Below are positions 30,301 through 33,300 of a stretch of DNA of 64,000 nucleotides, in pieces. The DNA comes from Escherichia coli (GTDB taxonomy: Bacteria; Pseudomonadota; Gammaproteobacteria; Enterobacterales; Enterobacteriaceae). The DNA is taken from the NCBI RefSeq assembly GCF_030013595.1, contig NZ_CP122768.1; one strand, written 5' to 3'. Numbering within the stretch: position 1 is the first letter of the stretch; each line of letters opens with the position of its first letter. A program made the position numbers.

Positions 30301-33300
30301 AGCAGGTACCGAAGCCCGTGACTCCACGGTTGGCAAGGGTGGTGCAATACAAAACCTGGGTCAGGACTTCGCCACAAAGGTTAATTCTGGTGGACAATAT
30401 ACCCTCGGTCGGTCAAAAGATGAGTTTCAGGCTTTGGCCCGGGCAGAAGATCTACAGATCGCTGGCGGGACGGCAATCGTCTACGCAGGTACGCTGGCGG
30501 ATGCATCGGTCAGTGGCGCGACAGGAAGCCTGTCGTTAATGACGCCACGGGATAATGTTACGCCAGTTAAACTTGAAGGGGTGGTCCGGATTACCGATAG
30601 CGCGACATTAACTATCGGAAATGGCGTCGATACGACGCTTGCCGACCTGACGGCTGCCAGTCGGGGCAGTGTCTGGCTTAACAGCAATAATTCCTGTGCA
30701 GGCACCAGCAACTGCGAATATAGAGTAAACAGTTTACTCCTCAACGACGGTGATGTTTATTTATCAGCACAAACAGCAGCGCCTGCCACAACTAACGGTA
30801 TCTACAATACGCTGACCACCAGTGAACTTTCCGGCAGCGGTAATTTCTACCTGCATACCAACGTTGCAGGCTCCCGGGGCGATCAACTGGTCGTCAACAA
30901 CAACGCCACTGGCAATTTTAAAATCTTTGTTCAGGATACCGGCGTCAGCCCTCAGTCTGACGACGCGATGACGCTGGTGAAAACAGGGGGAGGGGATGCT
31001 TCGTTTACGCTGGGTAATACCAGCGGTTTCGTTGATCTTGGGACCTATGAGTATGTCCTGAAAAGCGACGGCAACAGCAACTGGAACCTGACCAATGATG
31101 TCAAACCCAACCCGGACCCCAACCCAAATCCGAAACCGGATCCAAAACCAGACCCAAAACCGGATCCGAAACCAGACCCGACTCCCGATCCAACGCCGAC
31201 ACCCGTCCCGGAGAAACGCATCACGCCTTCTACGGCAGCCGTACTCAATATGGCAGCAACATTACCGTTGGTCTTTGATGCTGAGCTAAACAGTATTCGC
31301 GAGCGGTTGAACATAATGAAAGCGAGTCCACACAACAATAATGTCTGGGGGACGACGTATAACACCCGTAATAATGTCACCACCGATGCGGGTGCCGGGT
31401 TTGAGCAGACGCTGACCGGAATGACGGTGGGGATCGATAGCCGTAATGATATTCCTGAGGGGATTGCGACGCTGGGCGCTTTTATGGGTTATTCCCATTC
31501 ACATATTGGTTTTGATCGTGGAGGACATGGCAGTGTGGGCAGTTATTCTCTGGGGGGCTATGCCAGCTGGGAACATGAAAGTGGTTTCTATCTGGACGGT
31601 ATCGTGAAGCTGAACCGCTTTGAAAGTAACGTAGCCGGTAAAATGAGCAGCGGTGGAGCCGCCAACGGCAGTTATCGCAGCAACGGGCTGGGCGGTCACA
31701 TTGAAACCGGGATGCGATTTACCGATGGTAACTGGAACCTGACGCCGTATGCATCGTTAACGGGGTTCACCGCTGATAACCCCGAATATCATTTATCCAA
31801 TGGCATGGAATCGAAATCAGTCGATACCCGCAGTATATATCGTGAACTGGGCGCAACGCTGAGTTACAACATGCGTCTGGGGAACGGTATGGAAATTGAG
31901 CCGTGGCTGAAGGCGGCTGTGCGCAAAGAATTTGTCGATGATAACCGGGTGAAGGTGAATAATGACGGTAATTTCGTCAATGATTTGTCGGGCAGACGTG
32001 GAATATACCAGGCAGGTATTAAAGCCTCATTCAGCAGTACGTTAAGCGGACATCTCGGGGTGGGGTATAGCCATGGTGCCGGTGTGGAATCCCCGTGGAA
32101 CGCGGTGGCTGGTGCGAACTGGTCGTTCTGACCATCAACGAAAAAGCCCACATCTGTGGGCTTTCATATCACCAAGAGCCGCGGCTCCTTTGCGTATCCT
32201 TTTATGTCTCCTCACCGTCTGGTCGGTGTCTTGCTGAGACTTCTAACTTCCTGTTTTTGTTGGTGTTGTCCTTGCACCGTCCAATCATGATTGGTGGAGC
32301 TGGCGGGAGTTGAACCCGTGATCGTGATTAATCCAATTTATTGAATATGAACGATTTATTTTTTCAAACAATGAATTATGTGCATTTTACGTACATATTG
32401 TTGTCCCGGTAACGTCCTGATTCTGTACAACATTTTGAAATATTTTGCCGTTACGGGGTTGCAGAAATCGCCGTTTTTCCATCGTATTCTGCAAGGTAAG
32501 AGCCGTAATGTCTGAACAGCATTTCCGGTCCTTTATGCCCCATCTGACCAGCAAGCCAGAACAGGTTAACGCCCTGGCTAATGTGCCGAGTGGCGAACGT
32601 GTGGCGTGTCTGGTACGGATTGCGATAGCGTACACCAGCTTTTTTAAGGGTTGGTACCCAGGCTTTTTTCGGATCGCATCTGCGTTTGCCCAAGGGGCGC
32701 GAGTTTTCGGATCGCTGAATATGAAGTCGCTCTTTAGCGCCGTGTAGGGCTTTTGTGCCTGAAGAGCTGCCAGCGCTTCGCTGTTCAGTTGCACTTTGCG
32801 GGTGCCGGCTTTTGTTTTGGTGCTTTTGATTACCCCGACTACGCTTGCAGTCTGAACATGCGCGGTGTTGCCGATAAAGTCTATATCCGTCCAGCGCAAC
32901 GCGCACAATTCTGAGCTACGCAGTCCAGTATTAAAGGCAAAGCGAAACAGATTTCGCCATTCCGGGTAATGACAGGCGTCATAGATTGCTGCCGTCTCCG
33001 CTGGTGTAAAGGGATCGACCTCGTAATCACCACTGCTTGGTGTGTTGTCCAATACGTGATACCGGCTGGCGCTGACTAGCGTGACAGGATTTATTGTTAA
33101 CAAACCATCGGTCACCGCTTCATCTATGGCGCTGCGCAGAAACGAAAGATTATTGCGGATCGTTTTCAGTTTTGTTTTTCTGCTGGCGATCCAGTTTTTT
33201 AGTACAGCAGGTGTCAGTTCTGATACATGAAATTTATGCAATGCTGACAGCGCCGACAAGCATTTTTCATAACCTCTAATTGTCGATGGTGACAGGTTAC

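What the first reader, a model, noticed from the sequence alone, without database searches (positions are those of the whole stretch)
32600..32700. Integrase reading frame broken at a homopolymer run
The N-terminal and core parts of the integrase are in one frame and the catalytic C-terminus (RHTFATRHISQGVNLFWLAGQMGHKGPEMLFRHYGSY) is in another. The switch maps to an A6/T6 run (~32664..32669), where the frames read IRKKPGYQ versus PKKAWVPTLKKAGV. Together with the IS-disrupted dnaC-like gene this suggests a decaying prophage, though a homopolymer sequencing error is also possible.
Basis: seen in the sequence. Interest (0 to 1): 0.4.

Follow-up and report, generated by a model that had tools for sequence, protein, structure and literature searches.

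The report
Prophage integrase, one-base homopolymer frameshift
A prophage integrase gene is out of frame because a run of seven A's is written as six; this is most likely a sequencing or assembly error, or otherwise a very recent inactivating mutation, and is ordinary either way.

Summary
The integrase gene (window 33622..32451, minus strand) changes frame at the A6 run (T6 at 32664-32669). Its catalytic C-terminus lies in the -1 frame. Adding one A gives a 390-aa protein 100% identical to an intact E. coli integrase, WP_064226590.1. Every orthologue examined is in a single frame.

The A6 state is rare. The run is A7 in 11 of 13 complete E. coli genomes, in 5 viral contigs and in 2 metagenome contigs. 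The exact intact protein is on 256 contigs, and the frameshift product is absent from a 15-billion-protein collection.

The only two database copies with A6 come from one nanopore-only (R9.4.1) project. There a clonal twin has A7, and the twins differ over 40 kb by 0 substitutions and 5 one-base homopolymer indels. The window also carries a second homopolymer contraction 4.7 kb away that breaks ypjA.

My verdict is a homopolymer under-call (about 0.65). The main alternative is a very recent real frameshift that locks in a prophage already crippled by a genuine IS insertion (about 0.27). The A6 allele happens to form an in-register A_AAA_AAG slippery heptamer, so a real allele could be slightly leaky. 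Nothing supports an evolved recoding signal. Interest is low.

The parts
32451..33622 (-). Integrase gene of the prophage: Arm-DNA-bind_2, SAM-like core-binding and tyrosine-recombinase catalytic domains. It is 1172 nt as written, one base short of the 1173-nt intact allele.
   Evidence: ORFs. The gene maps onto PGAP CDS 6129-7300/7301 of L001/L002, annotated 'frameshifted' in ETEC4085 and intact in rl0044. The repaired protein is 100% identical to WP_064226590.1.
32664..32669 (-). A6 homopolymer (T6 on + strand), the site of the frame change at codons 319-320 (Lys-Lys). Intact relatives have A7.
   Evidence: Sequence. Alignment gap at this run against rl0044 and ETEC1732. Run-length tally.
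32663..32669 (-). A_AAA_AAG heptamer in register with the upstream (0) frame (CGA AAA AAG). A -1 slip here would give exactly the wild-type protein.
   Evidence: Codon layout. No significant downstream RNA structure (z = -0.45). The heptamer's properties are taken from PMC4066793.
32451..32662 (-). C-terminal catalytic segment in the -1 frame (AWVPTLKKAGVRYRNPYQTRHTFATRH...MGH...RHYGSY...). It carries the box II Arg340, His363 and the Tyr nucleophile (Tyr373 probable).
   Evidence: Alignment to Tn1549 Int (PDB 6EN0). The Pfam PF00589 match covers profile positions 4-165 only when the frame is repaired.
32387..32662 (-). Out-of-frame tail of the 0-frame product (PGYQPLKKLVYAIAIRTRHATRSPL...TTICT, about 91 aa, stop at 32387-32389). 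It has no homology and is not conserved as an open frame.
   Evidence: In orthologues the same frame closes after 7-59 codons.
32639..32645 (-). Second A_AAA_AAG heptamer (TTA AAA AAG), also in register with the shifted-allele 0 frame, 24 nt downstream of the first.
   Evidence: Sequence. Codon layout.
32672..32675 (.). GATC (Dam site) 2 nt from the run. CCAGG (Dcm site) lies at 32658-32662, 1 nt from the other side.
   Evidence: Read directly. Any relevance to base-calling is my inference only.
32292..32318 (-). Displaced 3' end of ssrA (tmRNA gene, about 27 nt). This is the attachment-site repeat next to int. The prophage is inserted in ssrA beside ypjA.
   Evidence: In strain 746 the unoccupied site reads ypjA-ssrA-smpB, and identity with the window runs 27 nt into ssrA. 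ARAGORN finds no full tmRNA in the window.
33580..33786 (-). 69-aa ORF overlapping the int start, at the position of xis. It is annotated 'excisionase' in some relatives.
   Evidence: (H6, H16, H24). It has no Pfam hit.
41922..43231 (.). IS3-family insertion sequence (1310 bp, 3-bp GAA target duplication) that interrupts the phage dnaC/IstB-like helicase-loader gene (41836-41921 and 43232-44027).
   Evidence: No complete E. coli genome shares this junction.

Best explanation
The locus is the integrase gene of a lambdoid prophage inserted into the 3' end of ssrA, next to ypjA. It is an ordinary lambda-type tyrosine recombinase of 390 aa, with an arm-binding N-domain, a core-binding domain and a catalytic domain.

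In the window its A7 run at the Lys319-Lys320 codons is written as A6. This pushes the catalytic Arg340, His363 and Tyr nucleophile out of frame.

The most likely cause is that the missing base is not in the DNA. It is probably a homopolymer-length under-call in a long-read assembly. In that case the real gene is intact and encodes the same protein as WP_064226590.1.

Shown here:
- the break and the exact one-base repair;
- the rarity of the A6 state;
- its confinement, among database copies, to nanopore-only assemblies;
- its disagreement between two assemblies of the same clone.

Inferred: that the window's own A6 has the same cause. The platform and the reads of the window are unknown.
For: 1. 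One added A gives 390/390 identity to the intact protein, so there is no decay downstream of the break.

2. The run is A7 in 11 of 13 complete E. coli genomes carrying this allele, and in 5 IMG/VR and 2 SPAdes metagenome contigs. The exact intact protein is on 256 contigs. The 411-aa and 420-aa frameshift products are absent from about 15 billion proteins, including Logan assemblies.

3. The only two A6 database copies, ETEC4085 and ETEC1734, come from one project sequenced with nanopore R9.4.1 only and polished with medaka, without short reads (PMC10151945).

4. ETEC1734 (A6) and its clonal twin ETEC1732 (A7) differ over 40 kb by 0 substitutions and 5 one-base homopolymer indels. Wherever a gene is affected, the shorter run is the broken state (int, a 2637-nt ORF, gspL).

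5. Over window 32300-41921 the run state conflicts with the SNP pattern. A6 is in the window, ETEC4085 and ETEC1734, while A7 is in ETEC1732 and rl0044. This points to a recurrent event rather than inheritance.

6. The window has two more homopolymer contractions relative to its closest relatives. One is G6 versus G7, breaking ypjA at 27995-28000, against a 99.9%-identical genome. The other is A7 versus A8 at 39080-39086.

7. The 64-kb window is contiguous through an IS3-family element of a type widespread and usually multi-copy in complete E. coli genomes. This suggests a long-read assembly, which is my inference.
Against: - No reads or platform information are available for the window.
- The window is otherwise clean. 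All 24 core genes and about 40 prophage genes are full length, and 11 runs of 7 nt or more inside genes are in frame.
- Both broken genes (an adhesin and a prophage integrase) are dispensable, which is what selection would leave if the mutations were real.
- The prophage has a genuine IS insertion, so real decay is under way.
- The bssS-like run exists in both lengths in many independent assemblies. Not every homopolymer difference here is therefore noise.
Confidence: 0.65

Rival explanations
1. The break is a real, very recent one-base deletion (A7 to A6, by replication slippage). It makes int a pseudogene. The 411-aa product keeps the arm-binding and core-binding domains and catalytic Arg235, but lacks Arg340, His363 and the Tyr nucleophile. 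It therefore cannot cleave DNA. The prophage, already replication-defective through the IS in its dnaC-like gene, is locked in ssrA.
For: - The frameshift is in the sequence as given.
- PGAP labels the same allele 'frameshifted' in two RefSeq genomes.
- The IS insertion, with its target duplication, shows genuine decay of this prophage.
- The rest of the window shows no broken core gene.
- Only profile positions 4-100 of 172 of PF00589 survive in the 0-frame product.
Against: - There is zero divergence downstream of the break.
- The allele is absent from 256 or more contigs with the same protein, and from short-read-derived collections.
- The only other A6 copies are in nanopore-only assemblies, one of which is contradicted by its clonal twin.
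- The same change would have to arise independently in three backgrounds.
Confidence: 0.27
2. The A6 allele is real and is expressed by recoding. Ribosomes slip -1 on the in-register A_AAA_AAG heptamer, or RNA polymerase stutters on the run. Either would give a low level of full-length wild-type integrase, so the phage can still integrate and spread.
For: - CGA AAA AAG is the dnaX/IS3-type heptamer in the correct register and direction. A -1 slip gives exactly the wild-type sequence.
- A second in-register heptamer lies 24 nt downstream.
- Near-identical prophage arms with A6 sit in three different chromosomal contexts.
Against: - All orthologues are single-frame (IRKKAWVPTL in E. coli, Cronobacter and Citrobacter phages).
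- There is no downstream structure (z = -0.45).
- The 0 frame runs on for about 91 codons instead of stopping. That frame is closed after 7-59 codons in orthologues.
- Heptamers without stimulators gave only 2- to 10-fold over a 0.055% background in E. coli (PMC4066793).
Confidence: 0.04
3. The run is a reversible on/off switch (phase variation) for integrase, toggling between A6 and A7 within populations.
For: The run length differs between clonal twins and is homoplasic among near-identical prophages.
Against: - The twins differ equally at four unrelated homopolymers (C5/6, A7/8 twice, A6/7 in gspL) with no SNPs. That pattern is general noise, not a dedicated switch.
- A 7-nt tract is short for a contingency locus in a repair-proficient E. 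coli (my own knowledge).
- No A6 was seen in short-read-derived data.
Confidence: 0.03

Closest known systems
E. coli prophage integrase WP_064226590.1 (e.g. strain rl0044, locus P9060_RS06220), and its RefSeq pseudogene copies QDW62_RS05850 (ETEC4085) and QDX84_RS05950 (ETEC1734)
   Same: The protein is identical (390/390) once one A is added. The prophage early region is the same (99.9% or more) and the location at ssrA/ypjA is the same. The two pseudogene copies carry the identical A6 allele and are already annotated 'frameshifted'.
   Different: The window's host backbone is only about 95-96% identical to those strains. Its prophage also has a private IS insertion in the dnaC-like gene.
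Integrases of the temperate phages Cronobacter phiES15, Escherichia PhiR12_1-5, LMessi and phi467 (87-89% aa) and Citrobacter phiNP (68%)
   Same: The length and domain order are the same. The ...ADAIRKKAWVPTL(K/R)KAG(V/I)RYRNPYQTRHTFAT... segment is conserved. A small xis-position ORF overlaps the int start.
   Different: All of these are single-frame at this site. PhiR12_1 and phiNP have a six-A run here that is in frame.
Lambda Int and Tn1549 Int (solved structures 1Z1G, 6EN0)
   Same: Both are tyrosine recombinases with an arm-binding N-domain. The catalytic signature aligns: Arg in TGLRSSE, R-H-T-F box II, the MGH histidine and a C-terminal Tyr.
   Different: They are distant in sequence (E = 1e-10 to 1e-4). 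The first box II His is Tyr337 here.
dnaX and IS3-family programmed -1 frameshift sites (A_AAA_AAG)
   Same: The heptamer is identical, it is in the 0-frame register, and the shift is in the -1 direction (PMC4066793).
   Different: There is no stimulatory structure or upstream SD-like element. The arrangement is not conserved in homologues, and there is no nearby 0-frame stop. It resembles those sites only by accident of the deletion.

Membership tests
Phage-type tyrosine recombinase (lambda Int-like integrase, Pfam PF00589 with an arm-binding domain) | Catalytic-domain profile match over its full length | tested here: met
   The repaired protein matches PF00589 at E = 1.8e-19 over residues 206-373 and profile positions 4-165 of 172. 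As written, the 0-frame product matches only profile positions 4-100.
Phage-type tyrosine recombinase (lambda Int-like integrase, Pfam PF00589 with an arm-binding domain) | Catalytic residues Arg...Lys...(His/Tyr)-x-x-Arg...His...Tyr present in one polypeptide | tested here: not met
   As the sequence is written, Arg235 is in the 0 frame, while Arg340, His363 and Tyr373 are in the -1 frame. The feature is met only after adding one A. Residue numbering comes from the alignment to 6EN0, and the nucleophile assignment may be off by one residue.
Phage-type tyrosine recombinase (lambda Int-like integrase, Pfam PF00589 with an arm-binding domain) | N-terminal arm-type DNA-binding domain and SAM-like core-binding domain | tested here: met
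   PF12167 at E = 2.6e-19 over residues 12-79. PF13102 and PF02899 over residues 104-180.
Phage-type tyrosine recombinase (lambda Int-like integrase, Pfam PF00589 with an arm-binding domain) | Gene lies at a prophage end, next to the attachment-site repeat in a tRNA/tmRNA gene | tested here: met
   A 27-nt ssrA 3' fragment lies at 32292-32318, about 130 nt beyond the int stop. The empty site is seen in strain 746.
Phage-type tyrosine recombinase (lambda Int-like integrase, Pfam PF00589 with an arm-binding domain) | Integration and excision activity | not testable with these tools
   This needs an attP/attB PCR or a recombination assay.
Programmed -1 ribosomal frameshift gene (dnaX / IS3 type) | X_XXY_YYZ slippery heptamer in the 0-frame register | tested here: met
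   CGA AAA AAG at 32671..32663 (-), shown.
Programmed -1 ribosomal frameshift gene (dnaX / IS3 type) | The two-frame arrangement is conserved among homologues | tested here: not met
   rl0044, WAT, UMNK88, phiES15, PhiR12_1 and phiNP are all single-frame. So are 18 further copies with A7.
Programmed -1 ribosomal frameshift gene (dnaX / IS3 type) | Stimulatory downstream structure, and a 0-frame stop soon after the site | tested here: not met
   The MFE of the 104 nt downstream is -26 kcal/mol, against a shuffle mean of -24.6 (z = -0.45). The 0 frame stays open for about 91 codons.
Homopolymer under-call in a long-read assembly (artefact) | The same site differs between independent assemblies of one clone, which otherwise differ only by homopolymer indels | tested here: met
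   ETEC1734 versus ETEC1732 shows 0 SNPs and 5 one-base homopolymer indels in 40 kb, including this run.
Homopolymer under-call in a long-read assembly (artefact) | The variant allele is confined to long-read-only assemblies and absent from short-read data | tested here: inconclusive
   This holds for the database copies: ETEC4085 and ETEC1734 are nanopore R9.4.1 only, and there is no A6. The window's own platform is unknown.
Homopolymer under-call in a long-read assembly (artefact) | Raw reads or orthogonal sequencing show the longer tract | not testable with these tools
   No reads are available.
Homopolymer contingency (phase-variation) locus | Long tract whose length varies specifically at this gene in accurate data | tested here: not met
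   The tract is only 6-7 nt. Variation is seen only in nanopore-only assemblies, where it occurs equally at unrelated runs.

The most novel reading that the evidence does not exclude
The A6 allele is real and circulates. A temperate phage would carry an integrase gene that is formally out of frame, and would make small amounts of wild-type Int by -1 slippage on the in-register A_AAA_AAG heptamer (with a second heptamer 24 nt downstream as a back-up). Alternatively it would toggle between A6 and A7. Either would explain why near-identical prophage arms with A6 are found in three different chromosomal contexts.
Probability: 0.03. Interest if true: 0.5.

Novelty: already known. Interest (0 to 1): 0.08.

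Why it matters
It matters little biologically. The main value is practical: this integrase should not be scored as a pseudogene, and the prophage should not be scored as immobilised on this evidence alone, without read-level confirmation.

The analysis also flags a reproducibly miscalled homopolymer in public nanopore-only E. coli assemblies, which already appears in RefSeq as a 'frameshifted' pseudogene.

If the deletion were real, it would be one more example of prophage lock-in through loss of integrase. In that case the broken allele could be slightly leaky, because the deletion creates a dnaX-type slippery heptamer.

Tried and rejected
1. I tried to find the window's own strain or lineage so as to see its int in another assembly.
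- The dnaC::IS junction is in no complete E. coli genome.
- The window-specific variant of the O-like protein is not on record, with either start residue.

2. I looked for an evolved recoding signal.
- The downstream RNA fold is no better than shuffled sequence.
- Orthologues are all single-frame.
- The long open alternative frame is not conserved, closing after 7-59 codons elsewhere.
- I therefore rejected both a hidden overlapping gene and a dual C-terminus.

3. Phage phi467 has a split integrase, but the split is near codon 150-190, not at this run. It is unrelated to this finding.

4. I considered inheritance of A6 as a clade marker. The SNP matrix rejects this.

5. A mismatch-repair mutator could explain the twin differences. 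I rejected this because the twins show 0 substitutions against 5 indels.

6. The Dam and Dcm sites flanking the run could cause base-calling error. The other four discordant runs lack such sites, so I keep this only as an untested remark.

7. The xis-position ORF has no Pfam match.

Full report
**Observation**

The + strand has a T6 run at 32664-32669. On the minus strand, ORF 32387..33649 reads ...PWANADAIRKKPGYQPLKKLVY.... The overlapping ORF 32451..32906 reads ...DPKKAWVPTLKKAGVRYRNPYQTRHTFATRHISQGVNLFWLAGQMGHKGPEMLFRHYGSYLAEYDGKTAISATP.

With PGAP's start taken from relatives, the gene is 33622..32451 (-). It is 1172 nt, one base short of a multiple of three. Inserting one A into the run gives a 390-aa protein with no difference from WP_064226590.1 of E. 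coli rl0044. The break is therefore real in the sequence, sits at the stated coordinates, and is not a chance juxtaposition of frames.

A 5-T tract does not.

**What the gene is**

The repaired protein has three parts:
- an arm-type DNA-binding domain (PF12167, residues 12-79);
- a SAM-like core-binding domain;
- a tyrosine-recombinase catalytic domain (PF00589, residues 206-373).

It aligns with Tn1549 Int and lambda Int structures. Arg235 lies upstream of the break. The box II Arg340 (in YQTRHTFAT), His363 (MGH) and the C-terminal Tyr (probably Tyr373) lie downstream. The 0-frame product would be 411 aa. It keeps only profile positions 4-100 of 172 of the catalytic domain and ends in a roughly 91-aa tail with no homology. 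As written, it cannot be an active recombinase.

The gene sits at the end of a lambdoid prophage. The gene order from this end is xis-position ORF, SPFH, cI/cro-like, Rha, O-like, DnaC-like, DnaB, Q, porin, lysis, terminase, head, tail. About 130 nt beyond the int stop lies a 27-nt copy of the 3' end of ssrA (32292-32318). In strain 746 the unoccupied site reads ypjA-ssrA-smpB. The phage is therefore inserted in the tmRNA gene, and this end is the int-proximal att.

The closest phage integrases are those of Cronobacter phiES15 (UV-induced) and Escherichia PhiR12, LMessi and phi467, at 87-89% amino-acid identity.

**How unusual the A6 state is**

Among complete E. coli genomes, 13 carry this allele. 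Eleven have A7 and two have A6: ETEC4085 and ETEC1734. Five IMG/VR contigs and two metagenome contigs all have A7.

The exact intact protein is recorded on 256 contigs. The 411-aa and 420-aa frameshift products are absent from the collection of about 15 billion proteins.

More distant orthologues all read IRKKAWVPTL in one frame (UMNK88, phiES15, PhiR12_1, phiNP). Their run lengths vary with codon choice, but the frame is always kept.

**Real mutation or artefact**

ETEC4085, ETEC1734 and ETEC1732 belong to PRJNA917806 (Vereecke et al. 2023, PMC10151945). That project used the rapid barcoding kit, R9.4.1 flow cells, Trycycler or Flye, and medaka polishing, with no short reads.

ETEC1734 (A6) and ETEC1732 (A7) are assemblies of the same clone. 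Their chromosomes are 5,272,521 and 5,272,534 bp. Over 40 kb around int they show 0 substitutions and 5 one-base differences, all in homopolymers of 5-8 nt. In three of the five, the shorter run breaks a gene that is intact in the twin: int and a 2637-nt ORF in ETEC1734, and gspL in ETEC1732. That pattern is base-calling noise, not evolution, and it includes this very run.

Over window 32300-41921 the substitutions give a simple star tree:
- ETEC4085 has 4 private SNPs;
- rl0044 has 1;
- the window has 1;
- ETEC1734 and ETEC1732 have 0.

The A6 state is spread across that tree, in the window, ETEC4085 and ETEC1734 but not in ETEC1732 or rl0044. It is therefore a recurrent event, not an inherited marker.

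The window itself has two further homopolymer contractions relative to its nearest relatives. The first is G6 versus G7 at 27995-28000. It frameshifts ypjA, and was compared with a genome 99.9% identical across this region and with two other genomes. The second is A7 versus A8 at 39080-39086, at the start of a bssS-like gene. That is two broken genes in 64 kb, close to the roughly 1.5 per 40 kb per assembly seen in the twin comparison.

**Points on the other side**

The window is otherwise clean. All 24 core genes and about 40 prophage genes are full length, and 11 in-gene runs of 7 nt or more are in frame. Core genes contain no run of 7 or more, so they give little power.

Both broken genes are dispensable. 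The prophage carries a genuine 1310-bp IS3-family insertion with a GAA target duplication in its dnaC/IstB-like gene. Some decay is therefore real.

The bssS-like run exists in both lengths in many independent assemblies, 143 versus 15 contigs for this exact allele. The ypjA G6 state occurs sporadically in 16 of 768 genomes. Neither of those two sites is decisive.

The window's platform is unknown. Its source is in none of the collections searched.

**Weighing**

I put about 0.65 on a homopolymer under-call and about 0.27 on a real, very recent deletion. The remainder goes to recoding or phase switching.

**The recoding possibility**

The deletion happens to create CGA AAA AAG, the dnaX/IS3-type A_AAA_AAG heptamer. 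It is in register with the upstream frame, and the required shift is -1. A slip would produce exactly the wild-type protein. A second in-register heptamer (TTA AAA AAG) lies 24 nt downstream.

Several results argue against an evolved signal:
- There is no stimulatory structure (z = -0.45).
- The 0 frame does not stop nearby.
- The open alternative frame is not conserved.
- Homologues are all single-frame.

Without stimulators, heptamers in E. coli gave only 2- to 10-fold over a 0.055% background in the systematic study (PMC4066793). Much higher values have been seen at C-AAA-AAA in an over-expression vector (PMC1851650).

A real A6 allele might therefore be slightly leaky. There is no evidence of a designed mechanism.

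**Comparison with what is known, and verdict**

The gene is a standard lambda-type integrase, identical to an already catalogued protein. The identical broken allele is already annotated 'frameshifted' in two RefSeq genomes. Both homopolymer frameshifts in prophage integrases and homopolymer under-calls in nanopore-only assemblies (the latter from my own knowledge) are familiar.

The finding is confirmed as an observation, ordinary in nature, and probably an artefact. Interest is low.

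Noticed in passing
window 27558-32131, run at 27995-28000: The adhesin-like autotransporter gene ypjA/ehaD is frameshifted by a G6 run. ETEC4085, strain 746 and the 99.9%-identical HCP5S3_I2 have G7 and an intact 1524-aa gene. The G6 state occurs sporadically in 16 of 768 complete genomes with this sequence.
   Followed up: partly
window 38842-39093 (-), run at 39080-39086: A bssS-family gene begins with ATG TCA CAA AAA AAC, an A7 run at codons 3-5. The window and ETEC1734 give an 83-aa ATG-start protein. The A8 form in ETEC4085, rl0044 and ETEC1732 forces an upstream alternative start and a 105-aa product. Both forms are common in public assemblies, on 15 and 143 contigs respectively.
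   Followed up: partly
window 41922-43231: A 1310-bp IS3-family element (ends TGAACCGCCCCGGG...; 3-bp GAA duplication) splits the phage dnaC/IstB-like ATPase gene at codon 28. The junction is unique to this sequence among 5426 complete E. coli genomes. In rl0044 a 98.7%-identical IS sits in the neighbouring dnaB-like gene of the same prophage.
   Followed up: yes
L008 versus L009 (ETEC1734 versus ETEC1732, 40 kb around int): Two public 'complete' assemblies of one clone differ by 0 SNPs and 5 homopolymer indels in 40 kb. This creates or removes four gene-model differences: int, bssS, a 2637-nt ORF and gspL. It indicates residual homopolymer error in nanopore-only RefSeq genomes.
   Followed up: yes
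window 46245-47339 (-) and 49443-49517 (+): The prophage carries an ompC-like porin gene (365 aa), a DNA methyltransferase gene and a tRNA-Gly(UCC) between the Q antiterminator gene and the lysis genes. These are possible lysogenic-conversion cargo.
   Followed up: no
window 51300-58600: The head module (HNH endonuclease to major capsid protein) is only about 88% identical in nucleotides to the ETEC4085 and rl0044 prophages. The early region is 99.9% or more identical, and the tail genes about 96%. This is a mosaic exchange of the packaging and head genes.
   Followed up: no
window 24336-24411: ARAGORN calls a tRNA-Met(CAU) here. The orthologous gene in relatives is annotated tRNA-Ile. From my own knowledge this is ileY, whose CAU anticodon is modified to lysidine.
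   Followed up: no
L019 (Escherichia phage phi467, LN997803.1 30140-31314): The 89%-identical integrase of phage phi467 is annotated as two ORFs, split near codon 150-190. This is a different place from the window's break. The cause was not examined.
   Followed up: partly
L008 20595-25573 (ETEC1734): In ETEC1734 and ETEC1732 the same prophage does not abut ypjA. It abuts a second integrase and P4-like satellite genes (polarity suppression protein). Elements are therefore stacked in tandem at ssrA.
   Followed up: no
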